From the IMG/VR virus record IMGVR_UViG_3300029858_000001, positions 1 to 27,122 of that record: 27,122 nt of DNA; one strand, given 5' to 3'. Each line of letters begins with the position of its first letter. The first letter of the stretch is position 1. The notes below the pieces were generated by a model. The model searched no databases, was not told the origin of the DNA, and worked only from the letters and a program-made list of their open reading frames with translations. The position numbers were made by a program, and so were the translations under genes. Below, one piece after another: positions 1 through 27,122 of the stretch. Origin of the DNA: a virus.

Positions 1-525
1 GCTGAATGTATGTGCTGCGGTAAAGGCTATGAAGCTGATCCAAGTGGAAATGTAGATGCATTTGTAGAATGTGATAAAGTTGTATGTGCGACCTGTGAAG
101 GCAAAGTTCAGTGCGATGATTGCGGAGCTTGGATTGATAGTGAAGATGCTTGGTTCTGTAGTGAAGATGGTGCAACGTATTGTAGTTGGTGTGCAGATGG
201 TCGCACCCAGGTCTGTAGCTGTTGCGGAGAAACTAAATGGCTTGATTATGATTTCAAGAAGCAGGCTCTTCCCTATATGTTTGAAGTAAAAACTCCTAAT
301 GGTAAGCATCGTCGAGATATTGGAAATCCCATTGATGTTTGTGATGATTGTTACGAAGATTATGATTTTGATGATGTACCGAAGGAGCCAGACTTGTGGG
401 GCGATTTTCAGTATATTGATGTTGACAAGGTAGATAAGAAGGTATGGGAGCCATTTTTGTCCCTTGACAGAATTGCTGATGCCAAGATGCGGCTAAAGGC
501 GATTTACCCTGATGATTATATTTAG
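1..525 (+). CDS. Cys-rich multi-CxxC (zinc-ribbon-like) protein, 5'-truncated at window edge. Its C-terminal architecture resembles the C-termini of 5522-7165, 8682-9680 and 9761-11083
   Basis: Frame is open from nt 1. It has tandem CxxC pairs (CATCEG, CDDCGAW, CSWC, CSCCGE, CDDC). It ends at TAG 523-525. Because TAG is sense elsewhere in this window, the true end may be TAA 577-579. Confidence 0.6.
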   Translation, partial: AECMCCGKGYEADPSGNVDAFVECDKVVCATCEGKVQCDDCGAWIDSEDAWFCSEDGATYCSWCADGRTQVCSCCGETKWLDYDFKKQALPYMFEVKTPNGKHRRDIGNPIDVCDDCYEDYDFDDVPKEPDLWGDFQYIDVDKVDKKVWEPFLSLDRIADAKMRLKAIYPDDYI

Positions 526-604
526 TTTAAATTCTTGCCAAAATTGAATACTCGAAAATTTATAAAAAATTTGATATAATATATATAGAAAGGATGGGAG
601 AGAT

Positions 605-1060
605 ATGGAACGCATTTATAGATTAACATATGGTCCTTATTATGAAAAGCAGGAACTTGGTTATCTTACTGAAGATAAATTGAATGATTATCTTGAAGAG
701 TTGTTTAATTCTACATTGTTTAGAAACTCTGTCTATAGTCATTTTGAAACTCTTAAAGCTGAAAAAGCTCGGTATGAAACTAAACGCCATGAAGCAATTC
801 AGGATATGAATAAATATCTCTCTATCCTTCAGGCCGGAAAAGCAAGTCTTGAATACAAAGACGCCAAGAAACAATATAAGAAATATGAACGTATTGTCAT
901 TGATTGTAACTGCCAAATGAAGAAAATAGATAAGTTAGTTGAAGAACATAATAAATGGACAGCAACTGATTGGCTTCATTGGGCTGATTACAATTGGGAA
1001 TCTATTGAACTTAATGTAGTCAGACCGGTTAATGAGAGGGCAAACGAGGATTGGATGTAA
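605..1060 (+). CDS. hypothetical protein (151 aa)
   Basis: Long ORF with an SD-like GAAAGGATGGGAG upstream. It follows a promoter-like TGaTATAAT extended -10. Confidence 0.6.
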   Translation: MERIYRLTYGPYYEKQELGYLTEDKLNDYLEELFNSTLFRNSVYSHFETLKAEKARYETKRHEAIQDMNKYLSILQAGKASLEYKDAKKQYKKYERIVIDCNCQMKKIDKLVEEHNKWTATDWLHWADYNWESIELNVVRPVNERANEDWM

Positions 1061-1296
1061 TGGAAAAGAAAGAAATGGTAATTAAAATCCTTAAAGAAAG
1101 CGGCACTCTTACTGCAAAGCAAATTTCAGCATTTGCAAAGCGTAAGTATGATTTTGATATTACACCGCAGGGTGCTTCGGGTGTTATGCGTAGTCTCATC
1201 GGTCAGGGGCTGGCGGCGAGTTCTAAAGATGGCAGCAATCAAACACGATATTGGCTTAATGCCTGTACATGGAAGGATATGACTGCAAATGATTAA
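1051..1296 (+). CDS. small putative DNA-binding (HTH/winged-helix-like) protein
   Basis: 81-aa ORF overlapping the previous stop. The segment KEMVIKILKESGTLTAKQIS looks like an HTH. Confidence 0.45.
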   Translation: MDVMEKKEMVIKILKESGTLTAKQISAFAKRKYDFDITPQGASGVMRSLIGQGLAASSKDGSNQTRYWLNACTWKDMTAND

Positions 1297-1519
1297 AAAA
1301 TGTGTTGTAACTATTTTATTAACTGCATTTATTGGGGTACTTCTTATTTCCTCTTGGAAATATACTTGTAATAAAATTCGTATTTTCCCTGATACTCTTT
1401 GGTCTAAAGGCGTTGAAATTCAAAAGCGAGATGGATATAAAATTGATCTTCATCATCCGTATGAAATGGTTGAAACAGAAGAAGGTTATGATTTAATCAT
1501 TCATTTTGTAGAGGAATAA
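1289..1519 (+). CDS. small membrane-anchored protein
   Basis: 76-aa ORF with an N-terminal hydrophobic helix (VVTILLTAFIGVLLISSW). Confidence 0.45.
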   Translation: MIKKCVVTILLTAFIGVLLISSWKYTCNKIRIFPDTLWSKGVEIQKRDGYKIDLHHPYEMVETEEGYDLIIHFVEE

Positions 1520-1520
1520 G

Positions 1521-1673
1521 CATGGCTGAATGTATTTATTTTAGGTATGAAGATACAACTCCTTGGCATGGTGATGTATTTGACCATCCTGATTATGAAT
1601 ATTATTGTGTGAGAAATACAAAAAAGAAAGAAATTTTTCCTTGGACTTGTCTCGAATGTCCTCATTACACTAA
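1521..1673 (+). CDS. small hypothetical ORF (50 aa)
   Basis: ATG preceded by GAGGAATAAGC. It is not in the supplied ORF track because it is under 60 aa. Translated by hand. Confidence 0.25.
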
Positions 1674-1690
1674 AGAAAGAGGAGAAAACC

Positions 1691-1963
1691 ATGATTCATA
1701 AAATGATTGCTTGTTCAAAAGAATGTCTTCGCTTTGCCTGCTGTGATTTCTGCAAGTATGTTATTCAGGATTATTTTTTTAATGAAGATAAAGATGGAAA
1801 TATGCAGATTGTAAATGGCGGACCTGATGGCTGTTCTCTTCATAAAGATAAAGAGCATCAAAGGATTGCTAAAAATTGTGGCTATTGCCAAGATTTCCAT
1901 TGCGTAAATGCAACTGAAAATAATAAAGATAGCTGGGTTGTAAAGGAGTTCGTAGATGACTGA
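1691..1963 (+). CDS. Cys-rich small protein (90 aa)
   Basis: ORF with GAGGAGAAAACC SD. It contains 10 Cys (CCDFC, CGYCQDFHC). Confidence 0.5.
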   Translation: MIHKMIACSKECLRFACCDFCKYVIQDYFFNEDKDGNMQIVNGGPDGCSLHKDKEHQRIAKNCGYCQDFHCVNATENNKDSWVVKEFVDD

Positions 1964-2204
1964 ATATAAATGTAAAGTATATGTGATTGAACCGCAGATA
2001 GGATGGCATGGATTTAGTCTGGTCGCTGCCCTTGATGCTGAACATGCCAATCAAACTATTCGCAAAGCCGCTGGAGAGAGTAGATATTATTGGGGATATT
2101 CACATGTGCGAGAGTATGATGCTATTGATAATGTTTATTCTGATACTATTGGATTTGTATATGAGGGGATTTTTGAAGATGATGAATATAGCAGAATTGA
2201 TTAA
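1956..2204 (+). CDS. hypothetical protein (82 aa)
   Basis: ORF overlapping the stop of the previous gene (ATGACTGA). Confidence 0.45.
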   Translation: MTEYKCKVYVIEPQIGWHGFSLVAALDAEHANQTIRKAAGESRYYWGYSHVREYDAIDNVYSDTIGFVYEGIFEDDEYSRID

Positions 2205-2421
2205 ACTGGTTGAAAAAACTGATTGGAATAAATACCGGAAAAAAGATATTCTTGATTTGGTCAAAGAGCATCCTGAACTTCTGGATATGACACCTGTTCA
2301 GCTTCGTACTAGAGCCAGAGATTTGGATTGGGATGCTGATGGATACATGAATAAAGTTAATAGCCTTGAAAATGAAGCGTCTTTGACCAGAGATTTAATT
2401 GAAATTATGTATGGAGAGTGA
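2179..2421 (+). CDS. hypothetical protein (about 80 aa; the ORF also opens at 2008 but that start overlaps 1956-2204)
   Basis: Internal ATG at 2179 is preceded by GAGGGGATTTTTGAAG. The frame is shared with track ORF 2008-2421. Confidence 0.4.
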   Translation: MMNIAELIKLVEKTDWNKYRKKDILDLVKEHPELLDMTPVQLRTRARDLDWDADGYMNKVNSLENEASLTRDLIEIMYGE

Positions 2422-3233
2422 TAATTATGAATTACCATTCAGATAAATGGGTTATGGATAAAGTAGAAACTCATTTAGAAGCAGCTAATGTTAGAAGCGA
2501 AAATTGGGTTAGTTTAATGGCTTATGGTAGCCAGAATTATGGTCTTGATACTCAATCGTCTGATGTAGATACCCGGCTTATTGTTCTTCCTTCATTTGAA
2601 GATATTGTATTAAATAAGAAGCCGGTATCTTATACCAAGATTCTTCCTAATGATGAACACATTGATTTTAAAGATATTCGTTTGTTCATTGATTGTTTAA
2701 AGAAACAGAATATGGCTTATCTTGAATGTATTTTCACTCCTTATAAAATGGCATCAAGCGAATATTGGAATGAATGGCAGGAGCTGCTCAATGAGCGTGA
2801 AGCTATTGCCCGTTATAATCCTTATAAGGCAGTTAAAACTATGAAGGGTATTGCTATGGAAAAATACCATGCAATGGAACATAGATATCCTATCAAGGTT
2901 CCCCTAATTGATACATATGGTTATGATAGTAAGCAGCTTATGCATTTGTTCCGTATTGAACAGTATCTTGGACGTTATATTGATGGGGTTAAGTATGCTG
3001 ATTGTCTTCCAGCACCAAGGGGTGATTATCTTCTTGCTGTAAAAAATTATCACTATGATCTTGAAGCTGCACGAATTGTAGCTAAAACTGCTATTGACAA
3101 TATTACAAGAGTAGCTGATAATTATTGTGCCAAAACTAAAGATGAAGGTAATAAAGAACTTGAAGATTTTATGAATAATGTCGTTTATAAAATCATGAAG
3201 AAAAGAGTAGTAAAGGAAATGTTAAATGTCTAA
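2418..3233 (+). CDS. Pol-beta superfamily nucleotidyltransferase (MNT-like)
   Basis: Motif GSQNYGLDTQSSDVDTRLIV matches the minimal nucleotidyltransferase signature G-S-x9-13-D-x-D. Confidence 0.6.
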   Translation: MIIMNYHSDKWVMDKVETHLEAANVRSENWVSLMAYGSQNYGLDTQSSDVDTRLIVLPSFEDIVLNKKPVSYTKILPNDEHIDFKDIRLFIDCLKKQNMAYLECIFTPYKMASSEYWNEWQELLNEREAIARYNPYKAVKTMKGIAMEKYHAMEHRYPIKVPLIDTYGYDSKQLMHLFRIEQYLGRYIDGVKYADCLPAPRGDYLLAVKNYHYDLEAARIVAKTAIDNITRVADNYCAKTKDEGNKELEDFMNNVVYKIMKKRVVKEMLNV

Positions 3234-3417
3234 CGAAAATATGACTATTGAAATTGATATTCGAGATATTGAAGAAATTGAAAAGAATATCGAAATTTTA
3301 GCTGAATGGATGACAAATCATTATACACGATTTGGTGCTCAAGCAATTGCACTTACAGCCATTTTTGATAAAGTAGAGGAATTAAAGAAAGAGCTGGCTG
3401 AAGAAGAAAATACATAA
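3226..3417 (+). CDS. small acidic protein (63 aa)
   Basis: ORF overlapping the previous stop. It is Glu-rich. Confidence 0.4.
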   Translation: MSNENMTIEIDIRDIEEIEKNIEILAEWMTNHYTRFGAQAIALTAIFDKVEELKKELAEEENT

Positions 3418-3430
3418 GGAGGAACCTTCA

Positions 3431-4210
3431 ATGTTCAAGGACTATTTGATTAGAGGCGACTGTCATGGTGATTTTACATGGCTTAATGCAAAAATGTTTA
3501 GAATTTTAAATCCAAAAGACTATGCAATCATCATTCTTGGAGATGTTGGTTTTAATACTGGTAGTACATTCCGAGATAATATGAAGAAAGAATACGCAAG
3601 CCAGTTTGGATATTTTATTTATTGTGTGCGGGGCAATCATGAAGTACGTCCTGAGAACATTGAAGGCATGGAGCGTGTTTGGGATAGTAATGTTCAAGCT
3701 AATGTATGGTATGAGCCAGCTTATCCTCTAATTAGATATTTTGATAATTACGGGATTTATTATCTTAAAACTGAAGATAGAGAATATCGTACATTAGTTA
3801 TTGGTGGTGCTTATTCTGTTGATAAATATTATCGTCTTAAAAACAATCTGCTTTGGTGGGAAGATGAACAATTAAGCGATAAAGAAAAGGCTGATGCTGA
3901 AATGCTTATTCGACAAACTAATAAGCATTTTGATCTTGTACTATCACACACATGCCCTTATTCTCTTAGGCCAGTTGATAAATTCCTTTCAGTAGTAGAT
4001 CAATCTACTGTAGATACCTCTATGGAAGAATGGCTTGAAGAAATTAAGAATATGATTACATATGATGTATGGCTTAGTGGTCATTATCATTGCGATAAAT
4101 TTATTAATAAGCATAATATTATCTTTTTTAATTGTATCGACCCTTTGGAAGATATTTTCCTTTGGCATGATAAAATGGATGATACTGTAAATAATATTGA
4201 CCGCTTTTAA
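3431..4210 (+). CDS. calcineurin-like metallophosphoesterase (Ser/Thr phosphatase-like)
   Basis: Motifs GDCHGD, ILGDVGFNTG and VRGNHE match the GDxHG / GDxxDRG / GNHE phosphoesterase signature. The RBS is AGGAGGAACC. Confidence 0.75.
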   Translation: MFKDYLIRGDCHGDFTWLNAKMFRILNPKDYAIIILGDVGFNTGSTFRDNMKKEYASQFGYFIYCVRGNHEVRPENIEGMERVWDSNVQANVWYEPAYPLIRYFDNYGIYYLKTEDREYRTLVIGGAYSVDKYYRLKNNLLWWEDEQLSDKEKADAEMLIRQTNKHFDLVLSHTCPYSLRPVDKFLSVVDQSTVDTSMEEWLEEIKNMITYDVWLSGHYHCDKFINKHNIIFFNCIDPLEDIFLWHDKMDDTVNNIDRF

Positions 4211-4237
4211 ACGATCAATTCTTTTTAGCTATTAAAT

Positions 4238-4266
4238 TTGACTTTTCATATGAAATATAGTATTAT
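4238..4266 (+). promoter_or_regulatory. sigma70-like promoter, TTGACT-17 nt-TATTAT
   Basis: TTGACT lies at 4238-4243 and TATTAT at 4261-4266, with exactly 17-nt spacing. It sits upstream of the 4304 gene. Confidence 0.5.
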
Positions 4267-4303
4267 TTACTAAGTATTTATTTTATATTGAAGGAGAATT
4301 AAT

Positions 4304-4891
4304 ATGCGAAAATTCTTAAATGTCATTCTTGTAATCACTATGGTTGCTTTAATGATGATGCCAGTAAGTGCTTTTAATATAATAAGTTATAGTGCTGATG
4401 GCGGAAGCAGGTCAGAAATCGAATACGGTCTTACAGAATATTGTAATTGCGGAATCGACCATACTAATAAACCCTTTGAATGGTGGACTGATATTACATC
4501 TACTGATAGTCCACAATGGGATTTAATTCATAACTATTTAACTATTCAAGAGAATGGCACATTAGCTACTGATGATGGCTATACCGCTTGTGCTCTTGGA
4601 AGATATTTCGGTAAAATTGGCTCAAAATGGATTTTTATTTGTGAAGACGGTTCAGAGATTAAGGTAGTTAAAGCTGATGAAAAGCAAGACCGCCATACAA
4701 AAAACTGGGATTTAATTCACGGTATTATTTGCGATGAATTAATTGAGCTTGTTGTAGATAGTAAGATTAGTCAAACTTGCCCAACTGGTAATTTCAAAGA
4801 CCTTGAAGGTTTTGAAGGTAATATAATTGGGTGGAAAGAAGTTCTTAATAATGAATTACCTGATTTATTAAAAGGAACAATTTATAAATAA
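4304..4891 (+). CDS. secreted or exported protein with an N-terminal signal peptide
   Basis: The N-terminus MRKFLNVILVITMVALMMMPVSAF is a typical signal peptide. The RBS is GAAGGAG. Confidence 0.6.
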   Translation: MRKFLNVILVITMVALMMMPVSAFNIISYSADGGSRSEIEYGLTEYCNCGIDHTNKPFEWWTDITSTDSPQWDLIHNYLTIQENGTLATDDGYTACALGRYFGKIGSKWIFICEDGSEIKVVKADEKQDRHTKNWDLIHGIICDELIELVVDSKISQTCPTGNFKDLEGFEGNIIGWKEVLNNELPDLLKGTIYK

Positions 4892-4917
4892 AATAATATT
4901 AAACGAGGTAATATAAA

Positions 4918-5418
4918 ATGAGCGTAGTTGCCGCGAAGGTATATGACAATAATATTCAAATGTCTGCGGATAGTATTTTAACTAATGGATGGGAAAAAGA
5001 CCCCAATACTAACTTTACTAAAATTATTTCTTTAAATGATATGATTGTTGGTAGTGTTGGTAATGCGGATGAATGCAGTCTTATGTGGCTATATATGGAA
5101 AATCATCAACCGCTTAATGCCACAGAAAGAGAAATTCTTAATTATTTTACTGAATTTGGTAAATGGAAAGGCGAGATTTCTAGTACTCGTGAGATTAGGA
5201 ATAGTTATTTAATGGCTTTTGGAGGTCATCTTTTTCAGATTTGTGGATATTTGGTTAGAGAAATTAAAGATTATTATGCCATTGGGGCTGGCGCTCCTTA
5301 TGCTTTGACCGCACTTCATCTTGGACATGATTCAGAAGAAGCTGTTAAAGTTTCTTGTGCTATGTGTTGTTTCGTTTGTGAACCTATTGTGACATATAGT
5401 CAAAAAAGAGGCGATTAA
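4918..5418 (+). CDS. HslV / 20S-proteasome beta-subunit-like Ntn-hydrolase
   Basis: Segments VGSVGNADECSL and AIGAGAPYALTAL resemble HslV AGFAGGTADAFTL and AIGSGGPYAQAAARAL. A Ser/Thr follows the Met. Confidence 0.55.
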   Translation: MSVVAAKVYDNNIQMSADSILTNGWEKDPNTNFTKIISLNDMIVGSVGNADECSLMWLYMENHQPLNATEREILNYFTEFGKWKGEISSTREIRNSYLMAFGGHLFQICGYLVREIKDYYAIGAGAPYALTALHLGHDSEEAVKVSCAMCCFVCEPIVTYSQKRGD

Positions 5419-5426
5419 ATATAGAT

Positions 5427-5470
5427 AAAAAGGGATAAAGATTTGATTCTTTATCCCTTTTTGATTTTTA
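5427..5470 (+). terminator. rho-independent terminator
   Basis: Stem AAAAGGGATAAAGA / TCTTTATCCCTTTTT followed by a T-tract. Confidence 0.7.
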
Positions 5471-5521
5471 TAATAAAATATTATAAAATATTTATAGAAA
5501 AAATAAAGGGAGTAAATAATC

Positions 5522-7165
5522 ATGACACCTTATGAAGCATTGACTGCACAAGATAAGGAATATATTACTGAATATATTGAAACATGGGGTGGCATTAATT
5601 CCCCAATTAAGCTTAAAGCACCTCTTAATTATATTCTTGGAGAATGGAATAAGAGTAAGCAAACTTTGTTTAATATCTTTGGCGAAAAGTTAATGCTGGA
5701 GAAGGAAATTCAAGTTGAAGATGGAGATAACAAAAAAATAAGAGAAGTTAGTGAGTATCTCTATAGCTTTAACCCTGGTATTAATTTTATTAAGAATCTT
5801 CGTAAGTTATTTGAGCTTAACGATACTTATTTTGAAAATACTTATGCAACAAAACATGCAATATATAATTTAATTCAAGCTTATCAACTTTTTACTAATA
5901 GAGTTGCTAAAGGATTTACTTATCATAATAAAGATGGTAAAATAGTTAAAGTTCCAGAAGGAGCTAAGGTAATGAAAGTTCTTCAGAAAATGGCTAAAGA
6001 ATTTGATTTGCCTGATTTTGAAATTTTTCGTAATCATATTTCGCGTATCACTGAAGTACGCAAATCTAAAATTAAATTTACTCTATCTATTCATCCTCTG
6101 GATTATATGACTATGAGTGATAATGTGAATGGGTGGGAAAGTTGTATGAACTGGACTCAAGGACCAGGTAGTTATCGTTCTGGTACTATTGAGATGATGA
6201 ATAGTCCATTAGTTGTTGTAGCTTATATTACTACTAAACCTTATTATCCAACAAATACTTCTATTGAATGGACTTCCAAAAGCTGGAGAGAATTGATTAT
6301 TGTTCATCCGAATACTATTTGTTCTGTAAAATCTTATCCTTATTACAATATTGCCTTTGATAAAGCTCTTGTTAATTGGCTTGCTAATCTGGTTGAAGAA
6401 AAAACTGAATGGCGTTATAACAGAAAACAGCCACAAGAGAGTTTGGAAAGTTGTTCTTATATTGAAGCTTGGCAAGATAAAGAAGATGAAGATAATCATT
6501 TCCTGTTGGATTTTGAAACAAATGAAATGTATAATGATTTTGGTAACACAGAAAATTATGGGATTTTTTCAATTAATCCACCAGACAATAAATATCGTAC
6601 ATTCGCAATTAATTATTCTGGTTTGATGACTTGTATGTGCTGTGGCGAGGATGGTTATTGGTCTGATGATACTGAAGCAGTAGTTTGTGAAGACTGTGAT
6701 CCACCCACTTATTGTTATTGCTGTGGCGAACGAGTTAATGCAAATGATGCAATTGAAGTAGATGGTGAATGGGTTTGCGAAGATTGTTATAATGATTTGC
6801 ATAGATGCTTATGCTGTGAGGATGCTCATTTTGATGAAGATTTCACTACTGTATTTGTTGGACATATTGATAATCAAACTATTAATATTGATTATGATGA
6901 GCATTATATTTGTAATGAATGTCTTGCCAATAAAGAATATTTAAAGTATCTCAGAGATACTAATATTAGGGCTGAAACAATTCGATTGGATGGCGGTCCT
7001 TATTATGGTATAGTGGCTCTCTTAATTGAAGAAGATGATTTAAATGTAGAGGCTAAAAAGATAATTTCTAATGATCCTTATTCTACTATAATTACTGATT
7101 ATACTTATGCTATTCGTCGTTATCCTGAGCGTTTTTATAGTTACAATAGGTCAATTGCGATTTAA
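5522..7165 (+). CDS. large protein: N-terminal 'HPLDY...W-SC' domain plus C-terminal multi-CxxC zinc-ribbon array (paralog of 9761-11083)
   Basis: SIHPLDYMTMSDNVNGWESCMNW resembles SVHPLDYLSLSENTHNWRSCHAL in 9761. Repeated CxxC pairs occur in the last 180 aa. Confidence 0.7.
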   Translation: MTPYEALTAQDKEYITEYIETWGGINSPIKLKAPLNYILGEWNKSKQTLFNIFGEKLMLEKEIQVEDGDNKKIREVSEYLYSFNPGINFIKNLRKLFELNDTYFENTYATKHAIYNLIQAYQLFTNRVAKGFTYHNKDGKIVKVPEGAKVMKVLQKMAKEFDLPDFEIFRNHISRITEVRKSKIKFTLSIHPLDYMTMSDNVNGWESCMNWTQGPGSYRSGTIEMMNSPLVVVAYITTKPYYPTNTSIEWTSKSWRELIIVHPNTICSVKSYPYYNIAFDKALVNWLANLVEEKTEWRYNRKQPQESLESCSYIEAWQDKEDEDNHFLLDFETNEMYNDFGNTENYGIFSINPPDNKYRTFAINYSGLMTCMCCGEDGYWSDDTEAVVCEDCDPPTYCYCCGERVNANDAIEVDGEWVCEDCYNDLHRCLCCEDAHFDEDFTTVFVGHIDNQTINIDYDEHYICNECLANKEYLKYLRDTNIRAETIRLDGGPYYGIVALLIEEDDLNVEAKKIISNDPYSTIITDYTYAIRRYPERFYSYNRSIAI

Positions 7166-7236
7166 TTGAAATTTTTAAAATAAAATAATATAATATATAC
7201 ATAAAATAAAGAAAAAATAAAAGGAGTTATTAAATT

Positions 7237-19155: not shown

Positions 19156-19541
19156 TGTTGATTTATGATATATCTTTTATAGATAGCAATTCTGAAAAAC
19201 ATAGTATTCCATTCCCAATACCAAATACTAATATTGAAATTTCCTATGGTACAGATCAAAAACGTTATTTAACTTTAACTTATAAATATAATACTACAGA
19301 AGAAAGAGAAGAATACCTAAGCAAAATATAGCAATTTAATTTAAGTTCTAATTCTGATTTTACTATTTCTATTTTAGATGATGATAATTCAGTTTCTTCT
19401 TTTATTTTTACTACTTTTAAAAATTTAAGAGAAGAAGAAGTTCAAAATACTATAAATAAAGATTATATCTATCGAGCTATAGATGATAGTCCTAAATTTG
19501 AATTACATTTATTCTGTCAATTAGGTGAAAATAATGAGTAA
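19155..19541 (+). CDS. small protein (128 aa, 1 TAG), paralog of 18784-19155
   Basis: The start overlaps the previous stop (TAATG). Motif DFTISILDDDNSVSSFIFTTFKN. Confidence 0.5.
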
Positions 19542-20124: not shown

Positions 20125-20159
20125 AATAATAATAATAATAACTAAGAAAGGTTATATTA

Positions 20160-21638
20160 ATGGATAAAATTATAAATTGTTTAGATAAAATAAATTGGAA
20201 AACTGTTATAATAGTTTCTGGAGGATGTAATTTAAATTGTAAGTACTGTTTAGTTAATAAATCTAAATCAGGAACTAACTATCCTAATTTTTTAAAAGAT
20301 ACTAATGCTGCGATAGCTAATGGTTCTTACTTAGATACTTTTAAAAAAGCATTTTAGAAATATAATCAAAGTCCTCGCCAAGTTGAAATTATGGAATTAT
20401 GGGGCAATGAACCAACTTTAATGCTTAAAGATTTAAATAAAGTTTGGAAAGACTGGTTAGAAGTTTTTTCTGGATTAAAAGGAATGACTTTTTCAACAAA
20501 CGGAATTGATTGTACTGATGATATATTTAATTTTATTTTAGAAATAGATAAGTATATCGACCATGAAATAGAAATAAGTATTTAGTATTCTTATGATGGC
20601 TTTCAAGGTGAAATAAATGAAAGACAACATAACAAAGAGAAGAAAGATACAGAATAGGATAGCATAGTTATTAATAATTTAATTAATTTAATAACAAAAC
20701 TTAACAGTGTAAAATTACATAATGTTAAAATAGATTTTATTCTTCATGCTGTACTATCTATGTTTATTGTAGATAATTTTAATACAACTGAAGATATTAG
20801 TAAATTTGTTGAACAATATATGGATACACTATATAGAATTAATCAATCTATTATCAACCAAAGAATTATATTCCGTGGAGGAGTATTTTTACATGAAAAT
20901 GCTCATGATTGGACCAGCGATGATGGAATTAATTATTGTAGCTTTATGAGAAAGTTCCAAAATATTTTAAGTGCTAAGAAACATAATTTTAAAAATGAAG
21001 GCGTCCAATATAGACATATTTTTAAAGAAGTTTTTGGAACTTTAGAAGAGGATATAATTAGTTTATGTTATAAAACTAATTGTCGTTCAATTGATACATT
21101 AATAGATAATTTTATAACTAATAAAGATTTACCAATTAATAGTTATTGTAGTTCTTTTGATGGTGTTTTACGAATAGATTATCAAGGAAATCTTTTAGAC
21201 TGCCATGCTTCTTTATATGACCCTTACCTAGAAAAGGATAAATTAACTAATACAATTTTAGATCAGGGTCGATGGATGTGTAAAGAACATGGACGGTATC
21301 TTAATATTCTAAAAAATGATAAAGAAGAAATTGAAAAATTACTTGATTTTTATCTTACTGCTCGTGACCCAACGGTAACTTTATTTGAAACATAGCAAAT
21401 GATAAATAAAATATATTTATTAGCTTTATGTGGATAGGCTAATGAATCTTATCTATATGATTTTAATAAATTAAAACGTCATGCTTTTATACTGGCTAAA
21501 GCATATCAATGCTATAATATATTAAAATGCCGGAATGGCTCTATTTTTGTTAGAGGAAATGAAGAAATAAGATTTTTCTGTAATGGTATTTTAGATATAG
21601 CTGAAGAAAATATAAATAGAGAAATTGGAGATTTTTAA
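20160..21638 (+). CDS. radical SAM enzyme with a SPASM/twitch domain (CNLNCKYC is CxxxCxxC; GNEPTL is the GGEP-like motif; CSSFDGVLRIDYQGNLLDC is Cx12Gx4C). It includes 4-5 TAG sense codons. Track fragments 20160-20357, 20391-20585 and 20760-21395 are one frame.
   Basis: All fragments are in frame 0 and separated only by TAG (20355, 20583, 20655). After TAG 21393 the same frame continues through a Cys-rich tail (ALCGQ, YQCYNILKCRNG, FFCNG) to TAA 21636. The minimal end is 21395. Confidence 0.65.
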
Positions 21639-21640
21639 TA

Positions 21641-23065
21641 ATGACTTATAAAGAACAAGAAAGAGATTTATTAAAATTATATTTAGATACAGCTTTATTA
21701 CCATATCCCACTAATTCAAATTCTGATGGAGACTATTTTTTAAATGAAAATGGATTTGAATTAATAGTACGTCCTTAGTGTAATTAGCATTGTTCATATT
21801 GCTATATAGCTAATTATGGCAAAGAACTTTATCCAACAGTGTTAAATAAAAAGGATACTTTAAAAAATATTGATCTTGTTTTAGATTATGTTTATAATAT
21901 AAGAAAAAATTTCTGTTATAATATAGCTCTGTTTGCCGGAGATATGTTTAATGATGAAATTTTCTTTGATATTGTTGATCTGCTTGAAAAATATCTAAAT
22001 CCTATTTTAATAAAACATCCTGAATATTTTAATAAACAGGGTTTAATTCAATGTCCTTGTAATTTACGATGGGTATATGAAAAACCTCAATTAGTATCAA
22101 GATTTAGAAAAATATATTATCATTTTAAAAATGTTTATAATATATATATGAGTTTTTCTTGGAGTACTGATGGATTACCAGCAATAAAAAATAGAGAAAA
22201 AATTGATATAGATCAACATTATTTTGATACTATTTTTTAGTTTACTAAAGAATTTGGTTTCGGATACCATCCTATGATTAGTGCCGAAAATATTGATGTT
22301 TGGTGTGAAAATATTGATTGGTGGTATGACATGTATAAGAAATTTGATTTAGCTGCTCCTAATGGTTATTATCAACCTTATATGCTTGAAGTACGTAATG
22401 GTAATTGGACTCCAGAAACTATTGAATTACATAATAAATTTCTTGAACATTTTATGAAAAAAAGATTTGAATTATGTGATAGTGATAAAACTAAATTTGT
22501 ACATCATTTATTAATTGGGACTGATGAAGATGGAAATTTACCATTCCCTCAAGGATGTGATCCATTAGATTTAAAATCCAGTAGCTCAACAAGTAGTAAT
22601 TTTGATAAAATGAGCTGTGGTGCTTAGAGTATGATTCATTTTAATTGTACTAATCTATCTTTAGTATTTTGTCATAGAATGTCTTATCCTCTTTACACTG
22701 GTGGGTATTTTAAAACAGATGAAGAGAAAAATCATATTATTGATATAGATCCCTATAATGTAAGTGCATATATAACTATGAAAACGGCAAAAACAACTAC
22801 TTTCCCTTTGTGCGCAAAATGCAAATACTTTAGTCTTTGCAAGTTAGGATGTCTTGGGGCTTAGACTGAAGATAGTGGAGAACCTTATATGCCAATTAAA
22901 GCTGTTTGTGCTTTTAATAAAGTTAAATATGAAAAATTGACTGATTTATATTATCAATATGGTGTTTATGATATAGGAGTTAAAAAAGGTTGGCTCACAA
23001 AAGATAAATCTTGGTTAACATTTATCTACAATCAAGGAATAGAAAGAGGGTATATAAATGAATAA
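21641..23065 (+). CDS. second radical SAM / SPASM enzyme (P(Q)CN(Q)HCSYC is CxxxCxxC with two TAG inside the motif; C-terminal CAKCKYFSLCKLGC is CxxCx5Cx3C). Track fragments 21839, 22274 and 22631 are one frame with 5 TAG.
   Basis: Frame 2 is continuous from ATG 21641 (RBS GGAGAT) to TAA 23063. The interruptions at 21776, 21785, 22238, 22625 and 22862 are all TAG. Confidence 0.65.
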
Positions 23066-23423
23066 AAAAGTTAAATTTTTAATTGCCTTAAATTCTATTA
23101 AAGAAAACTTTGATATTAATAATATAAATGATTATCAAGAATTAATTGATATTTGCAGTCGAATAAATTATGCAAAAGAAAAGGATGAAGATATTCTTTC
23201 ATTCGTTAAAGAAATTATATAGTTAATTGCATTAAAATAGATAGACTCAAAAGAATGTGATTCTTGTTGGCAAGAATATATACCTGATATTCCAATTGAC
23301 AATCAACCTGAAAATGATGATTTTTATAGTCATAGTAATACTTTTTAGAATTTATTTAAATTGGATATATTCAATCCTTTAAATCCAGATTATAAGTATA
23401 CAAATATTTTAAAATTTAATTAA
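23058..23423 (+). CDS. small hypothetical protein (about 121 aa, 3 TAG)
   Basis: ATG overlaps the previous gene's end. Hand-translated in frame 0 to TAA 23421. Confidence 0.4.
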
Positions 23424-23438
23424 AAAGAGAAAAAAATA

Positions 23439-24296
23439 ATGATTTATTTTACTTTACAAAATTTTTATGAAAATCAAAAATTAAATAATATATTTTTCAT
23501 TGTGCAAGATAAATTTTCTGGCTCTTTTAAAGTTCCTGTTAAATTTATTTATACCGCCGGTTCTTTCCCCTATACCTATTGGAACGGCGGTATAAATAAC
23601 AACTTTGGTATTGGCGATAATACTTATGATACAATTATAGAATATTCTAATAATAACCTATTGCCTTTAAGAATTAATTGTAGTAATATTAATTTAAATC
23701 CTAATGATTTTGATGATACTATTATGAATGTAATTTTAAATTTATTAAATAATAGTAGCAATGCTATTGAATTATCAAATTTGGAATTATATGAATATCT
23801 ATATAAAAAGTATCCTAACTTTCATTATATTTTATCGAATAATTTTAACTTAATTAACTCACTAACTCCAGAATTAATTAATAAATTGAATGAAATTTGT
23901 GATTTTTATTTAATTCAAATTCCATTAAATAAAATTAAAGATTTAAATTTCTTAAAAGCAATACAAAATAAAAGGAACATTGAGTTACCTGTTGGAGATA
24001 TTTGTAATTGTACAAGTTTAGACGATTGTAATATTAAAGAACAAATAGCTCAATATAACTATTCAGATTCTTTTACTAAAATAAATTGTTCTAAATGTTC
24101 AGGACTTAATTATAGTTTATCTATAGAAGATATTCAGAATAATTATGTTCCTTTAGGATTTCATAATTTTATTTTACCAGATTATTGTAATTCAAAAAAT
24201 AATAATATAATTAAATTTTTTATTGATTTTTTTATTAAAGATTCTGACAAATTATTGATTTATGAATTTATAGAGGAGCAAATGTATTATGGTTAA
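23439..24296 (+). CDS. U32-family-like protein A (paralog of the next gene; Cys-rich, CNCTSLDDC, CSKCSG)
   Basis: Shares NSLTPE, PLGF(H/E) and YP(N/M)(F/Y)(H/K)Y motifs with 24289-25158. No TAG. Confidence 0.45.
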   Translation: MIYFTLQNFYENQKLNNIFFIVQDKFSGSFKVPVKFIYTAGSFPYTYWNGGINNNFGIGDNTYDTIIEYSNNNLLPLRINCSNINLNPNDFDDTIMNVILNLLNNSSNAIELSNLELYEYLYKKYPNFHYILSNNFNLINSLTPELINKLNEICDFYLIQIPLNKIKDLNFLKAIQNKRNIELPVGDICNCTSLDDCNIKEQIAQYNYSDSFTKINCSKCSGLNYSLSIEDIQNNYVPLGFHNFILPDYCNSKNNNIIKFFIDFFIKDSDKLLIYEFIEEQMYYG

Positions 24297-25158
24297 GTAT
24301 GCAATTCCAGGAATGTATGAATTAGCAAATTTAAATTTTAAACTCTTAGATTTAAAATCTGCTAATCCTGAATATTTTTACGATGACGTAGAAATTGAAA
24401 TTAGTTATGGTAATCCTCAATTTTGTATCTGGGATGGAGGAAGAGTATTTTCTTTTTATAAACAAGCTTCTATTGATATTATAAAAAATATAATTGATAC
24501 ATATAATAATAAATATCATATCCCTATTAGATATGTATTTACAAATAATCAATTAACTCCAAAAGAATATAAAAATAGATTTTGTAATTTATTAATGGAA
24601 GCAGGAAGTAACGGTCCTAATGAAGTAGTAGTCGCTGATGATGATTTTATGCTTTATCTTAAAGAACAATATCCTATGTATAAATATGTATCATCGACTA
24701 CTAAAGTTATTACTGATCCAGAAGAGGCAAAAAAAGAAATTGATAAAAAAGATTATAAACTTACCTGTTTACATTATGATTTAAATTTCAATTTTAAATT
24801 TTTGAATTCTTTAACACCAGAAGAGCGAGCAAAAACAGAGTTTTTAATTAATCCAATCTGTCCTGCTGGTTGTCAATTCAGAAAAGAACATTATAAACTG
24901 AACAGTCAAATGGTTTTAAATTATGGTAAATCTTACACTACTCCTTGGTGCGGAATTACTAAAAATAATTTCTATCCATCTGTTCGTAAAAATCATATGA
25001 GTTATGAACTAATTAAAGAAAAATATGCTCCTTTAGGTTTTGAGCATTATAAAATTGAAGGACGTACTTGGGAAGAGTTAGAGGCAGCTTTAACTTATTG
25101 CGAGTATATGATAAAACCAGAATATCAAAATTACGTACTACCTTATTTAATGGGCTGA
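24289..25158 (+). CDS. peptidase-U32-family protein B (RlhA/UbiU/UbiV/TrhP superfamily)
   Basis: The C-terminal motif GFEHYKIEGRT matches the conserved U32 KIEGR segment (compare E. coli YhbU HSLKIEGRTKS). Cys residues CPAGC and WCG may bind an Fe-S cluster. No TAG. Confidence 0.5.
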   Translation: MVKYAIPGMYELANLNFKLLDLKSANPEYFYDDVEIEISYGNPQFCIWDGGRVFSFYKQASIDIIKNIIDTYNNKYHIPIRYVFTNNQLTPKEYKNRFCNLLMEAGSNGPNEVVVADDDFMLYLKEQYPMYKYVSSTTKVITDPEEAKKEIDKKDYKLTCLHYDLNFNFKFLNSLTPEERAKTEFLINPICPAGCQFRKEHYKLNSQMVLNYGKSYTTPWCGITKNNFYPSVRKNHMSYELIKEKYAPLGFEHYKIEGRTWEELEAALTYCEYMIKPEYQNYVLPYLMG

Positions 25159-25187
25159 TTAATTTAATCAGTCCATCTTTTTTTTTA
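25155..25187 (+). terminator. probable terminator (palindrome CTGATTAA-T-TTAATCAG followed by a T-run)
   Basis: 8-bp perfect hairpin. The T9 run begins 6 nt downstream. Confidence 0.45.
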
Positions 25188-25338
25188 TATATTTTAAAGA
25201 CAGTAGGTTATGAACTGCTCTAGCCGGCTTGGGATGCTAAAACCGAATGCTTAAATTAAAATTCCATTTAAGAAATTTTCGGTCCAATAGGTATAGAGCA
25301 ACATAAAATAATTTTAAATATGAAAGGAGAAGGACAAT

Positions 25339-25452
25339 ATGAAAATGTTTATTCTTTCATATAAGGGCGGCAAAGACGGCGGCGACATTGACAAAGAAGA
25401 TACTTCTAAGTCAACAGGCGGCTGGGATGGCGGCTCTATAGATGATGATTAA
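25339..25452 (+). CDS. 37-aa Gly/Asp-rich peptide (MKMFILSYKGGKDGGDIDKEDTSKSTGGWDGGSIDDD)
   Basis: RBS AAAGGAGAAGG at good spacing. It lies between the U32 genes and the tail-fiber genes. Confidence 0.35.
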   Translation: MKMFILSYKGGKDGGDIDKEDTSKSTGGWDGGSIDDD

Positions 25453-25469
25453 AGAAAGGAGAACACGAG

Positions 25470-26531
25470 ATGGCTGAAATTATTAAGTTAAGACGTGGTA
25501 AATCAACCAGTTGGTCTAAAAAGAATATAGTTCTTGCAGCTGGTGAAATCGGCGTAGAACTTGATACACATTAGATTAAAGTCGGCGATGGTTCAACACC
25601 TTGGAATAAACTATCTTATGTAGGCGGAACTAAAGTTGTTAATGTTCAAGAATACACTGATAATCCAGCAGTTGTAGATGGCGTGCCTTATCAATCTATT
25701 GATGTAGCATTTATGAAGGCTCCAGCAGGAAGTACAATTCGTCTTAATACCAACTTTGATAACAGCGTTTCTATTGATAAAGCATTGACTATTGAATTAA
25801 ATGGTAATGATATTATCAACAATGAAAAAACTCCAATAGATATCAAAGCAAATGGCGATCTAACTATTAAGGGCCAAGGCACTATTGAATGTAATAAGAA
25901 TGAAAATGCCGCAGTTTTTAATAATGGTAATATTACTATTAATAATGGTAAATTACAACGTACTACTGATGTATCAGGCAATGGCTATTATACTGCTGTT
26001 AATCATGGCATTATGACAATTAATGGTGGCATGTTTATGAGTGGTGGCGAGTTTTCTAGTATGATTGAAAATGGCTATTGGGATTATCACGCTGGTAATG
26101 CTACTAATGGTTATGTTCAAGGTCAAAATGCTGAAATGCCTACATTAACTATTAATGATGGTACATTCGCTGGCGGCTTATATGCTATAAAAAATGATGA
26201 TAATGCTGTTTTAAATATTAATGGCGGCACATTCTATAATACTATTCTTGCTAATGGTAAGTCAATGACTATTACTAATGGATATTTTGAAAATAGTAAA
26301 CCAAGCCAAGGGGAATATAATTTTTATCTTCGTAAATTAAGTGAAGATATAAATCCTCAAAATACATACATTAGTGGCGGTACATTTATTACTGCACAAG
26401 ATAAGAATTTCAAGGTTGAGGGTGACCCTCATATTGAAATTAGTGGTGGTCGTTTTAATAGAGAATTAGATCCTTCTTATTTAGCTCCTGGCTATAGACA
26501 AGTACTTGTCAATGGCTTCTATACTGTCTAG
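25470..26531 (+). CDS. tail fiber / receptor-binding protein with a conserved N-terminal domain and a beta-helix-like NGG repeat body (1 TAG at 25572)
   Basis: The N-terminus IKLRRGKSTSWSKKNIVLAAGEIGVELDTH(TAG)IKVGDGSTPWNKLSYVGG parallels the next gene. It has repeats NGGTFYN and NGGMFMSGG. The frame is continuous into track ORF 25683-26531. Confidence 0.6.
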
Positions 26532-26546
26532 AAGGAGGAATAATCT

Positions 26547-27062
26547 ATGGGTGATATCATCAAGTTCAAAAGAGGTCGATCAACTACATGGCGCGAAAAG
26601 AACTTATTGCTTAAGGACGGCGAGCCTGGATTTGAATTAGACACTTATAAACTGAAAATTGGTGATGGTAAAACTTTATGGAATGATTTACCATATATTG
26701 GTGGCGAAAGTGGTATAATTGATCTTCCTGATAATGTAATGGAATTTTTAGGTACAGTTGATGCACTTCCAGCTACCGCTGAGGATGGAGAAATGTGTAT
26801 TTATAATGGTAAATTATATATTTATGATGGTAAATGGACAACTACAGAAACTTCTTCTTCAACACAAAATTCTTTCAATTCTTTAGTAGATGCAATTAAT
26901 TATATCACTTAGCATAATTGTGTTGGTCAAATTGTATCTATCTTTTAGAATAATAAATGGTTGCCTTATATTGTAGATGTAAATAATAATCTTGTACCTA
27001 TTCAATATGGAGAAGATAGTTATGATATTCTTAATGGTGGCAACGCAAATACTCTTAATTAA
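26547..27062 (+). CDS. second tail-fiber-like protein sharing the same N-terminal domain (2 TAG at 26910, 26946)
   Basis: The N-terminus IKFKRGRSTTWREKNLLLKDGEPGFELDTYKLKIGDGKTLWNDLPYIGG parallels the previous gene. The frame continues after TAG to TAA 27060. Confidence 0.55.
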
Positions 27063-27084
27063 TTTTATAGGAGGAAAATGATTT

Positions 27085-27122
27085 ATGGCTGATAAAATTC
27101 TTAATACTCGTATTCAAGTATT
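27085..27122 (+). CDS. start of next gene (truncated by the window end)
   Basis: AGGAGG lies 10 nt upstream of ATG 27085. Confidence 0.4.
   Translation, partial: MADKILNTRIQV

What the first reader, a model, noticed from the sequence alone, without database searches (positions are those of the whole stretch)
1..27122. TAG density is strongly skewed towards homing-endonuclease and late genes
About 12 kb of early-type genes hold only 3-4 in-frame TAG (7854, 7995, 10961, perhaps 523). The zinc-finger nuclease has 10 per 307 codons and the intron HNH 7 per 205. Late genes 18784-27062 carry about 27 per 2700 codons. The U32 pair, the PD-(D/E)XK endonuclease and the GC-rich gene have none. This fits the proposal that recoding gates late-gene translation on a phage-supplied suppressor. 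It also suggests the TAG-free genes are recent acquisitions from standard-code genomes.
Basis: partly seen in the sequence, partly recalled or inferred. Interest (0 to 1): 0.6.

Follow-up and report, generated by a model that had tools for sequence, protein, structure and literature searches.

The report
Uneven amber-codon use in recoded phage
This piece of a roughly 185-kb gut phage reads the stop codon TAG as glutamine and uses it very unevenly between genes, which is a real pattern but one already described for recoded phages.

Summary
The counts are essentially right and far from chance. TAG encodes Gln here: in the zinc-finger nuclease, one TAG sits on a Gln that is invariant in 81 homologues, and another TAG is CAG in an 88%-identical copy.

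TAG as a share of Gln codons, by gene group:
- Conserved block 1-12005: 4% (4 of 99).
- Two homing-endonuclease genes: 73%.
- Six genes at 18784-23423: 37%.
- Tail-fibre genes: 24%.
- Paralogous pair 23439-25158: 0 of 16.

The skew recurs across 79 kb of a related contig.

- The "late block" is not one unit. Window 18647-25149 is a cassette with its own promoter and terminator, and it is missing at this site in four relatives.
- Temporal classes were not established.
- No suppressor tRNA lies in the window. Relatives carry a tRNA(CUA) about 29 kb downstream.
- TAG use tracks codon dialect gene by gene. TAG-using genes lack CAG, and CAG-using genes lack TAG.
- The idea that TAG-free genes are recent imports from standard-code genomes fails for the "U32" pair. 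That label has no support from Pfam or PHROGs, or from a profile search of PDB sequences.
- The same idea is untestable for the PD-(D/E)XK gene, which has only 4 Gln codons.

Borges et al. already reported both the early/late skew and a preferentially recoded intron endonuclease.

The parts
1..12005 (+). Conserved, TAG-poor, CAG-using block of 20 ORFs. It includes an RlaP-like nucleotidyltransferase, a metallophosphoesterase, an HslV-like and an M28-like peptidase, and three Zn-ribbon paralogues. Sense TAG at 7854, 7995, 9722 and 10961. TAG 523 is either a stop or a read-through site.
   Evidence: 4 TAG, 63 CAA and 32 CAG in 3,806 codons. Collinear at 89-94% identity in four relatives, with all these TAGs conserved. 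Third-position substitution bias across the TAGs. Annotation.
7237..7632 (+). The 'GC-rich gene' (47.5% GC, 131 codons): 0 TAG, 4 CAG, 1 CAA.
   Evidence: Present in all four relatives inside the collinear block. It is a compositional outlier but not a recent arrival within this clade. Its TAG-free state matches its neighbours.
12872..13795 (+). Free-standing zinc-finger homing endonuclease gene: 10 TAG, 3 CAA, 0 CAG.
   Evidence: PHROG HNH/homing-endonuclease families, E=7e-35. Absent from L002, L004 and L008. TAG codon 244 aligns with an invariant Gln in 81 of 81 homologues. 88%-identical copies in other gut metagenomes keep 9 of the 10 TAGs and have CAG at codon 33.
14975..15784 (+). tRNA gene interrupted in the anticodon loop by a 735-nt insert. 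The insert carries the HNH ORF 15105-15719 (9 TAG, 4 CAA, 0 CAG).
   Evidence: ARAGORN in intron mode. Pfam HNH_2/HNH. The whole segment 14779-15779 is replaced by a tRNA-Lys(UUU) in a strain that is 99.7% identical over 18225-27122.
16874..17412 (+). tRNA-Asn(GUU) gene interrupted by a 464-nt insert. The insert carries the PD-(D/E)XK ORF 16937-17359 (0 TAG, 4 CAA).
   Evidence: ARAGORN in intron mode. Pfam PDDEXK_5, E=3e-28. The uninterrupted tRNA-Asn lies at the same place in L185, and the insert is also absent in L007, L009 and L010.
18647..25149 (+). Accessory cassette of eight genes with its own sigma-70-like promoter (about 18683-18712), lying between two terminator hairpins (18642-18677 and 25150-25176). 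Genes 18784-19155, 19155-19541, 19534-20124, 20160-21638 (radical SAM), 21641-23065 (radical SAM-like CxxxCxxC) and 23058-23423 hold 22 TAG. The paralogues 23439-24296 and 24289-25158 hold none.
   Evidence: Window 18646 joins 25150 directly in L007, L008 and L010, and the block is likewise missing from the more divergent L009. Promoter and terminators. Radical_SAM Pfam hit. A copy of the same cassette, 31-42% identical in protein, lies about 15 kb downstream in relatives; there paralogue 2 has 4 TAG and paralogue 1 has 0. The cassette is identical in content in the sibling strain L185.
25470..27062 (+). Two tail-fibre-like genes (25470-26543 and 26547-27062): 2 + 2 TAG, 13 CAA, 0 CAG.
   Evidence: PHROG tail-fibre and structural families. 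TAGs conserved in L007 and L008. The more distant L009 has CAA at codon 26529.
12002..16429 (+). Repeated strong promoter motif, TTGA-N10-AAAAAATATTATATAATAT. Sites (first base of the 19-mer) at 5473, 8636, 12014, 12226, 12406, 13844 and 16411. Weaker sites at 564 and 7178.
   Evidence: 14 matches against 0.88 expected. Alignment. The motif lies upstream of TAG-poor genes and tRNA genes and is absent after 16.4 kb. The same distribution holds in the relative.

Best explanation
The window comes from a large gut phage that reads TAG as glutamine (genetic code 15). A sibling strain is a 185,021-bp contig.

Its genes fall into two codon dialects. One set uses CAA and CAG and almost never TAG. The other uses CAA and TAG and almost never CAG.

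The most likely mechanism has three steps.
1. TAG codons arise from CAG by C-to-T change under the strong A+T pressure of this genome.
2. They persist only in genes whose products are not needed until a phage-encoded tRNA(CUA) is present.
3. Genes that must be translated by the unmodified host machinery are kept TAG-free by selection.

A TAG-laden ORF, such as the two homing-endonuclease ORFs that sit in units driven by early-type promoters, would then be transcribed but stay untranslated until the suppressor accumulates.

Shown here: TAG means Gln; the skew and its replication in relatives; the mutual exclusion of TAG and CAG; a suppressor tRNA in relatives.

Inferred: the timing, and selection as the cause.
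For: **TAG means Gln.**
- TAG codon 244 of the HEG aligns with an invariant Gln in 81 of 81 homologues.
- Codon 33 is TAG in the window and CAG in an 88%-identical copy.
- The radical SAM motif reads CN(TAG)HC here and CNQKC in the paralogous cassette.

**TAG is not used as a terminator.** It ends 0 or 1 of about 37 window genes. The gene set called on the first 69 kb of the relative has 58 TAA and 15 TGA stops. That count is a consistency check only, because the gene caller treated TAA and TGA as the only stops.

**The skew.**
- Window: 4%, 73%, 37%, 24% and 0% of Gln codons by class.
- First 59 kb of the relative: conserved block 6%, tail-fibre cluster 29%, radical SAM cassette 44%.

**TAG and CAG exclude each other.**
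- Spearman rho is -0.63 in the window and -0.61 in the relative, p=7e-7.
- In 79 kb of the relative, 16 CAG-rich genes hold 4 TAG in 170 Gln codons. The 39 CAG-poor genes hold 135 in 422.

**Promoters.** The strong promoter motif lies by TAG-poor genes and tRNA arrays, not inside the TAG-rich tail-fibre and cassette region.

**Suppressor.** A canonical tRNA(CUA) occurs in the two close relatives L022 (17701-17775) and L020 (16049-16123). It has a weak 1-72 pair and G73.

**Literature.** The same model and pattern are published for other recoded phages (10.1101/2021.08.26.457843; PMC7886860). TAG=Gln has been shown by metaproteomics (PMC9523058).
Against: - No expression or timing data exist, so "early" and "late" are labels.
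- The tRNA arrays sit behind the same strong promoter motif as the TAG-poor genes. The suppressor site in relatives lies in one of these arrays. The suppressor may therefore be made early, leaving little delay.
- TAG use is interleaved gene by gene rather than split into two blocks. A PhoH-like gene (4 TAG) and radical SAM genes use TAG. Two large fibre genes (1 TAG in 1,286 codons), an SLH protein and a CHAP-domain hydrolase fragment do not.
- Two genes of the TAG-poor block carry TAG within their first 25 codons (7854 and 9722).
- The PD-(D/E)XK endonuclease and several HEGs in the relative carry no TAG.
- The suppressor tRNA was not seen in the window's own genome.
Confidence: 0.55

Rival explanations
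1. Mosaic ancestry without regulation. TAG density records how long each gene lineage has lived in code-15 genomes under A+T pressure. Modules exchanged with standard-code phages or bacteria stay CAG-rich and TAG-free. Long-resident or intra-clade mobile genes (HEGs, fibre genes, cassettes) drift from CAG to TAG. On this view the skew is a by-product, not a timing device.
For: - TAG-free genes have higher GC3 and use CAG. TAG users have GC3 of 0.09-0.20 and almost no CAG.
- The pattern is interleaved at the level of single genes.
- The HNH and Zn-finger HEGs are polymorphic between near-identical strains. Their TAG load must therefore have arrived with them.
- In another gut contig, an EcoRI-like methylase and a GmrSD/HNH gene lie about 1.3 kb downstream of the same HEG. 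They have 0 TAG and 10 CAG each.
- Within one fibre cluster, neighbouring genes differ sharply.
Against: - The TAG-poor block is conserved and collinear in all relatives at 89-94% identity, yet stays at 4-6% TAG while adjacent genes reach 37-44%. Under pure drift, its 32 CAG codons should leak to TAG.
- The TAG-free pair has the same extreme A+T composition as its TAG-rich neighbours.
- The association with promoter type is not predicted by this view.
Confidence: 0.3
2. One reading: the TAG-free genes (the "U32" pair, the PD-(D/E)XK endonuclease and the GC-rich gene) are recent acquisitions from standard-code genomes.
For: - The pair's family is common in Firmicutes genomes and prophages.
- The best hit outside the clade is a region of a Clostridiales Family XIII genome that looks largely standard-code.
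- The PD-(D/E)XK intron is absent from a strain that is 99.7% identical over 18225-27122.
- The GC-rich gene is a compositional outlier.
Against: - The pair belongs to a cassette whose other six genes carry 22 TAG. It shares their GC3 of 0.13-0.14.
- The paralogue-2 homologue in recoded relatives has 3-4 TAG.
- The nearest standard-code homologue is only 57% and 39% identical.
- The GC-rich gene is present in all four relatives.
- The PD-(D/E)XK ORF has only 4 Gln codons, so 0 TAG carries no information (p=0.29).
- The equally mobile HNH element is TAG-rich.
Confidence: 0.08
3. Artefact: the apparent TAG-containing ORFs are mis-called, and TAG is simply a stop codon in an A+T-rich sequence.
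For: Long spurious ORFs are easy to obtain in 30% GC DNA when one stop codon is ignored. Treating TAA as sense lengthens ORFs about as much in total.
Against: - TAG-spanning ORFs give full-length matches to radical SAM, HNH, homing-endonuclease and tail-fibre families.
- TAG aligns with conserved Gln.
- Substitutions across TAGs fall on third codon positions.
- TAG positions are conserved between 31-42% identical paralogues at 5 sites.
Confidence: 0.02

Closest known systems
TAG- or TGA-recoded gut phages described by Borges et al. (bioRxiv 10.1101/2021.08.26.457843; crAss-like, Lak, Garnet, Amethyst, Topaz, Agate, Jade and Sapphire clades)
   Same: - Low-GC phage with an in-frame recoded stop codon.
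- The recoded codon is concentrated in structural genes and depleted elsewhere.
- A suppressor tRNA is encoded by the phage clade.
- Proposed translational gating.
- That paper also reports a group I intron endonuclease that is preferentially recoded, with the same interpretation: no endonuclease until late in infection.
   Different: - Here, within the 79 kb sampled, the TAG-using set is interleaved with TAG-free genes rather than forming a single late unit.
- It includes accessory radical SAM cassettes and a PhoH-like gene.
- Lysis genes could not be assessed.
- The endonuclease enrichment is TAG for Gln in tRNA-associated elements, not TGA for Trp in an intron of an early gene.
- Membership of any named clade was not tested, because no capsid, portal or terminase gene was reached.
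Zeta-group crAss-like phages (Yutin et al. 2021, PMC7886860)
   Same: - Genome size of 145-192 kb.
- Alternative code, mostly in late genes.
- Many tRNAs and suppressor tRNAs.
[quoted passage not shown]
   Different: - No crAss signature gene was seen in the 79 kb examined.
- An SLH-domain protein and a cassette shared with Clostridia point to a Firmicutes host rather than Bacteroidetes. This is an inference.
- The relationship was not tested.
Phassvirus / phAss-1 (PMC10607447)
   Same: Human-gut phage of about 136 kb. TAG is read as Gln in 28% of its ORFs. It has 36 tRNA genes and three tRNA-Sup(CTA) genes.
   Different: A megablast of the window and tblastn searches with two window proteins and one protein of the relative found no match to phAss-1 or any related record in the GenBank phage collection. 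It is not a close relative.
Late-restricted translation of intron homing endonucleases in phage T4 (I-TevI and relatives). This is from my own knowledge of the literature and was not checked here.
   Same: In both cases an endonuclease ORF inside or beside an essential gene is transcribed early. It is kept untranslated until late, which protects splicing and limits nuclease toxicity.
   Different: T4 uses late promoters and sequestration of the ribosome-binding site. Here the proposed block is a run of 9-10 in-frame amber codons that need a suppressor tRNA.

Membership tests
Genetic code 15 phage (TAG read as Gln) | In-frame TAG inside ORFs with clear homology to known protein families | tested here: met
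   Radical SAM, HNH, homing-endonuclease and tail-fibre ORFs all span TAGs.
Genetic code 15 phage (TAG read as Gln) | TAG positions align with Gln in homologues | tested here: met
   Codon 244 of the HEG aligns with Gln in 81 of 81 homologues. Gln is the commonest residue at two further TAG sites. A TAG/CAG difference occurs between 88%-identical copies.
Genetic code 15 phage (TAG read as Gln) | TAG not used as a terminator | tested here: inconclusive
   No window gene needs a TAG stop, except possibly the one ending at 523. The gene caller itself assumed TAA and TGA as the only stops, so the 58 TAA / 15 TGA count in the relative is not an independent test.
Genetic code 15 phage (TAG read as Gln) | Phage-encoded suppressor tRNA with anticodon CUA | tested here: inconclusive
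   None in the window. The tRNA-like hits at 12288-12360 and 17517-17584 are degenerate. A canonical tRNA(CUA) is present in the close relatives L020 and L022 and in the more distant L024. The window's own genome beyond 27 kb was not available.
Recoding as a late-gene translation gate (Borges/Yutin model) | Early and replication genes are free of the recoded codon | tested here: inconclusive
   The conserved block has 4% TAG among Gln codons, and 6% in the relative. Its temporal class rests only on a sigma-70-like promoter motif. No replication gene was seen.
Recoding as a late-gene translation gate (Borges/Yutin model) | Structural and lysis genes are enriched in the recoded codon | tested here: inconclusive
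   - Tail-fibre genes: 24% in the window, 29% in the relative.
- Two large fibre genes there have 1 TAG in 1,286 codons.
- The only lysis-type gene seen, a CHAP fragment, has 0 TAG but only 2 Gln codons.
- No capsid, portal or terminase gene was reached.
Recoding as a late-gene translation gate (Borges/Yutin model) | The suppressor becomes active before the recoded genes are translated | not testable with these tools
   This needs time-resolved expression data from an infection.
   No Pfam hit at E<=0.01 for either protein. No U32 hit for any of 11 family members at E<=10. No PHROG hit. A profile search of PDB sequences gave only chance hits. The fold was not compared.
Recent acquisition from a standard-code genome (pair 23439-25158) | Composition differs from neighbours, a near-identical homologue exists in a standard-code genome, and the genes are absent from siblings while their neighbours are present | tested here: not met
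   GC3 is 0.13-0.14, like the neighbours. The best standard-code homologue is 57% and 39% identical. The pair is present, with its TAG-rich neighbours, in sibling L185 and absent together with them in other relatives.
Homing endonuclease genes (12872-13795, 15105-15719, 16937-17359) | Nuclease family match plus presence/absence polymorphism at a fixed site between close relatives | tested here: met
   PHROG homing-endonuclease families, and Pfam HNH_2 and PDDEXK_5. Each element is absent from some relatives with intact flanks. Cleavage and homing activity were not tested.

The most novel reading that the evidence does not exclude
TAG and CAG form two mutually exclusive gene-level dialects that divide the genome into two translation regimes. 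Some homing endonucleases have become "code-locked", with 70-77% of their Gln codons as TAG. Such elements could be expressed only inside suppressor-bearing phages and only after the tRNA genes they interrupt or flank have been expressed and spliced. TAG load would then act both as a timing device and as a host-range barrier for selfish elements that move among recoded phages.
Probability: 0.15. Interest if true: 0.55.

Novelty: new member of a known kind. Interest (0 to 1): 0.3.

Why it matters
The window adds a clean, well-replicated example of gene-specific amber use in a large gut phage clade. That clade has no close relative in the GenBank phage collection searched.

Three points go slightly beyond the published picture.
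- TAG and CAG use exclude each other almost completely, gene by gene. This points to CAG-to-TAG conversion as the source of recoded codons.
- Accessory cassettes and a PhoH-like gene also use TAG, not only structural genes.
- Mobile endonuclease elements that differ between strains 99.7% identical over the shared 9 kb carry their TAG load with them.

None of this overturns current understanding. It mainly warns against reading "TAG-free" as "foreign", or "TAG-rich" as "late", without further evidence.

Tried and rejected
- **GenBank phage relatives.** Megablast of 25 kb and tblastn with two window proteins found nothing. A vault-like protein of the relative hits only unannotated huge-phage records. 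No annotated complete relative was therefore available.
- **Exact look-up** of the 547-aa protein in the assembly index: not on record.
- **Promoter-motif scan of IMG/VR**, meant to harvest many loci from the clade at once.
- **Suppressor candidates set aside.**
  - A "tRNA-Stop(tta)" that ARAGORN called in the relative. The exons fit a type II tRNA-Leu(UAA) split between positions 34 and 35, the classical group I intron site. That site is from my own knowledge.
  - The loop "ta" tRNA-like at 12288-12360.
  - The Rfam tRNA hit at 17517-17584, which has a 5-nt anticodon loop and a broken acceptor stem.
- **The "U32" label:** rejected on Pfam, PHROG and PDB-sequence profile searches.
- **HEG enrichment as a general rule:** rejected, because the relative's eight HEG-like ORFs average 27%.
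No capsid, portal, terminase or replication gene was reached.

Full report
**What is in the window.** All convincing genes lie on the + strand. GC is about 31%. With the standard code the second half breaks into fragments. With TAA and TGA as the only stops, long ORFs appear that match known families:
- a zinc-finger homing endonuclease (12872-13795; PHROG E=7e-35);
- an HNH endonuclease (15105-15719);
- a radical SAM enzyme (20160-21638) and a second ORF with the CxxxCxxC motif (21641-23065);
- two tail-fibre-like proteins (25470-27062).

The first 12 kb hold 20 ORFs. These include an RlaP-like nucleotidyltransferase, a metallophosphoesterase, HslV-like and M28-like peptidases and three paralogous zinc-ribbon proteins. 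Between 12 and 18.7 kb lies a tRNA array with mobile elements.

**TAG means glutamine.** I searched with the zinc-finger nuclease, masking its ten TAG positions, and aligned 81 homologues.
- Position 244 is Gln in all 81.
- Gln is the commonest residue at two other TAG sites and the second commonest at two more.
- Copies that are 88% identical, from a Hadza gut metagenome and one other sample, keep nine of the ten TAGs and have CAG at the tenth.
- Across gene 7800-8627, variable sites among relatives fall 16 of 19 on third codon positions through both TAGs.

This agrees with published code 15 (PMC9523058 and PMC7886860).

**Checking the counts.**
- The HNH ORF has 9 TAG, not 7.
- The block 1-12005 has a further sense TAG at 9722. 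The gene starts at 9656, as its two paralogues indicate.
- TAG 523 may be a true stop. The 54 nt between it and the next TAA show no substitution among four relatives and overlap the next promoter.

| Class | TAG / Gln codons | Share |
|---|---|---|
| Block 1-12005 | 4 / 99 | 4% |
| The two TAG-rich HEGs | 19 / 26 | 73% |
| Six genes 18784-23423 | 22 / 60 | 37% |
| Pair 23439-25158 | 0 / 16 | 0% |
| Tail-fibre genes | 4 / 17 | 24% |
| PD-(D/E)XK ORF | 0 / 4 | 0% |

No permutation out of 20,000 reached the observed heterogeneity. Out-of-frame TAG is 11-18 per kb in all the main classes. The skew is real and is not a composition effect.

**Relatives change the picture of the "late block".** IMG/VR holds four contigs of 105-188 kb from one sample that are 88-97% identical to the window.
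- In three of them window position 18646 joins 25150 directly, and the block is also missing from a more divergent fifth contig (L009). The 6.5 kb in between are therefore an accessory cassette. It holds three small genes, two radical SAM genes, one more small gene and the TAG-free pair.
- The cassette has its own TTGCTT-N17-TATAAT promoter and lies between two terminator hairpins.
- A copy of the same cassette, 31-42% identical in protein, lies about 15 kb further downstream in the relatives, next to the fibre genes. There the homologue of the second paralogue has 4 TAG and that of the first has none.
- The pair's family is widespread in Firmicutes genomes. The nearest copy outside the clade is 57% identical, in a Clostridiales Family XIII genome.

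**Mobile elements.**
- The zinc-finger HEG is absent from three relatives with intact flanks.
- A metagenome contig of 185,021 bp (L185) is 99.7% identical to window 18225-27122, cassette included. It has a plain tRNA-Lys(UUU) where the window has the small ORF plus the tRNA with the HNH insert. It also has an uninterrupted tRNA-Asn(GUU) where the window has the PD-(D/E)XK insert.
- Both elements, one TAG-rich and one TAG-free, are therefore recent gains or losses. Their TAG content came with them.
- In the relative, eight HEG-like ORFs together have 15 TAG in 55 Gln codons (27%), no more than other TAG-using genes. Enrichment in HEGs is thus a property of two lineages, not a rule.

**Wider sample.** I merged overlapping loci of contig 3300045988_166471 into 79 kb.
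- The window's pattern recurs in the first 59 kb: conserved block 6%, tail-fibre cluster 29%, radical SAM cassette 44%.
- The arrangement is interleaved rather than two-block.
- TAG users include a PhoH-like ATPase and further radical SAM enzymes.
- TAG-free genes include two large fibre genes, an SLH protein, a DUF2828 RNA-binding-type protein, a vault-like protein, a flotillin-like protein and a CHAP-domain fragment.
- The best single predictor found is CAG use. Sixteen CAG-rich genes hold 4 TAG in 170 Gln codons, while 39 CAG-poor genes hold 135 in 422 (rho -0.61, p=7e-7). In the window rho is -0.63.
- The strong promoter motif accompanies TAG-poor genes and tRNA arrays. It is missing from the TAG-rich fibre and cassette region.

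**Suppressor.** The window has no tRNA with anticodon CUA. Two tRNA-like sequences with UUA-like loops are degenerate. Two close relatives carry a canonical tRNA(CUA) about 29 kb downstream of the window's end, in a second tRNA array. In the third relative that site holds a GIY-YIG gene and an odd tRNA-like sequence with a CUCUAAA loop.

**Explanation.** The best reading is a code-15 phage with two features.
- CAG-to-TAG conversion under A+T pressure is tolerated only in genes that are not needed before the suppressor is active.
- TAG-laden ORFs are silent until then.

A rival of real weight is mosaic ancestry without any regulatory role. Gene-by-gene interleaving, the link with GC3 and the imported TAG load of mobile elements favour it. 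The stability of the TAG-poor block next to TAG-rich genes, and the promoter association, favour selection. The data cannot separate the two.

**Comparison with the literature.** Yutin et al. 2021 report stop-codon reassignment mostly in late genes of crAss-like phages, including a 145-192 kb group rich in introns. Borges et al. report the same skew in eight clades. They also report a group I intron endonuclease that is preferentially recoded, and conclude that in-frame stops prevent endonuclease production until late. The finding is therefore a new instance of a known phenomenon.

**Limits.**
- There are no timing data.
- No capsid, portal, terminase, replication or clear lysis gene was reached.
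- Gene starts were chosen by a simple rule.
- The 79-kb sample comes from a relative, not from the window's own genome.

Noticed in passing
window 12454-12602; L009 4012-4146: tRNA genes carry short inserts (73 nt and about 58 nt) in the anticodon loop. These are far too short for group I introns. The insert ends look like a tRNA 3' half: a GGTTCAAATCC-type hairpin followed by ..CACCA/..GGGCCA. The L009 example folds as a cloverleaf with a nested stem and two hairpins (z=-3.55). The window example is conserved in the relatives.
   Followed up: partly
window 18158-18245: An 88-nt tRNA with a long variable arm (the Leu/Ser/Tyr/Sec shape), G73 and anticodon CCA (Trp codon). Rfam scores it as tRNA-Sec at 39 bits, below the 47-bit threshold. 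It is 100% conserved in a relative. Which amino acid it carries is unclear.
   Followed up: no
window 14975-15784 and 16874-17412: Two tRNA genes are split in the anticodon loop by 735-nt and 464-nt inserts carrying HNH and PD-(D/E)XK endonuclease ORFs. Rfam found no group I intron model match at E<0.1. ARAGORN's anticodon calls for split genes are unreliable: it called Asp, but the uninterrupted allele in L185 is Asn(GUU).
   Followed up: partly
window 12060-12180, 12288-12360, 17517-17584: tRNA-like fragments lie behind copies of the strong promoter.
- A 3' half ending in CCA is followed by a 5'-half-like sequence, in permuted order. It gives weak tmRNA and permuted-tmRNA hits of 14 bits.
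- A tRNA-like sequence has a 6-nt GTTAAT loop.
- Another tRNA-like sequence has a 5-nt loop and a broken acceptor stem.
   Followed up: partly
window 13978-14195, 14427-14790, 15785-16315: Conserved non-coding stretches with somewhat higher GC lie between tRNA genes (up to 99% identical in relatives). None matches an Rfam family. A preprint on theta (minimal HDV-like) ribozymes next to phage tRNAs (10.1101/2023.06.13.544163) is a lead that I did not follow.
   Followed up: no
window 1-579, 5522-7165, 9656-11083: Three paralogous proteins of about 475-575 aa share a SIHPLDY..S.N...W.SC motif and C-terminal CxxC zinc-ribbon repeats. They match no Pfam or PHROG family. Only the third carries internal TAGs.
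   Followed up: no
window 18784-25158; L021 5500-11000; L026 5300-10900: A conserved phage cassette consists of a small Gly/Asn/Cys-rich protein, two radical SAM enzymes and two paralogous Cys-motif proteins. In relatives of the window phage it sits next to the tail-fibre genes, and the window's strain appears to have a second copy. It is also found in other large phages and in Clostridia genomes. Its function is unknown; peptide or fibre modification is only a guess.
   Followed up: partly
L021 about 18000-18940 (contig 3300045988_166471): Relatives L020 and L022 have a canonical tRNA(CUA) at this site. This contig instead has a GIY-YIG endonuclease gene, followed by a tRNA-like sequence with a CUCUAAA anticodon loop and a non-canonical T loop. 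ARAGORN does not call it.
   Followed up: partly
L200 6324-16988 and 21753-22376: The relative encodes an SLH-domain protein, a DUF2828/DUF7788 RNA-binding-type protein, a major-vault-protein-like protein (829 aa, conserved at 62-100% in 15 viral contigs), a flotillin/SPFH protein and a CHAP-domain hydrolase. All are TAG-free, and the vault-like, flotillin-like and DUF2828-type genes are CAG-rich. The SLH domain suggests a Gram-positive or S-layer host.
   Followed up: partly
window 11394-12005: This very A+T-rich gene (22% GC, 9 CAA, 0 TAG) is replaced in four relatives by about 3 kb holding three TAG-rich genes (16 TAG in 826 codons). A variable slot therefore sits at the edge of the TAG-poor block.
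   Followed up: partly
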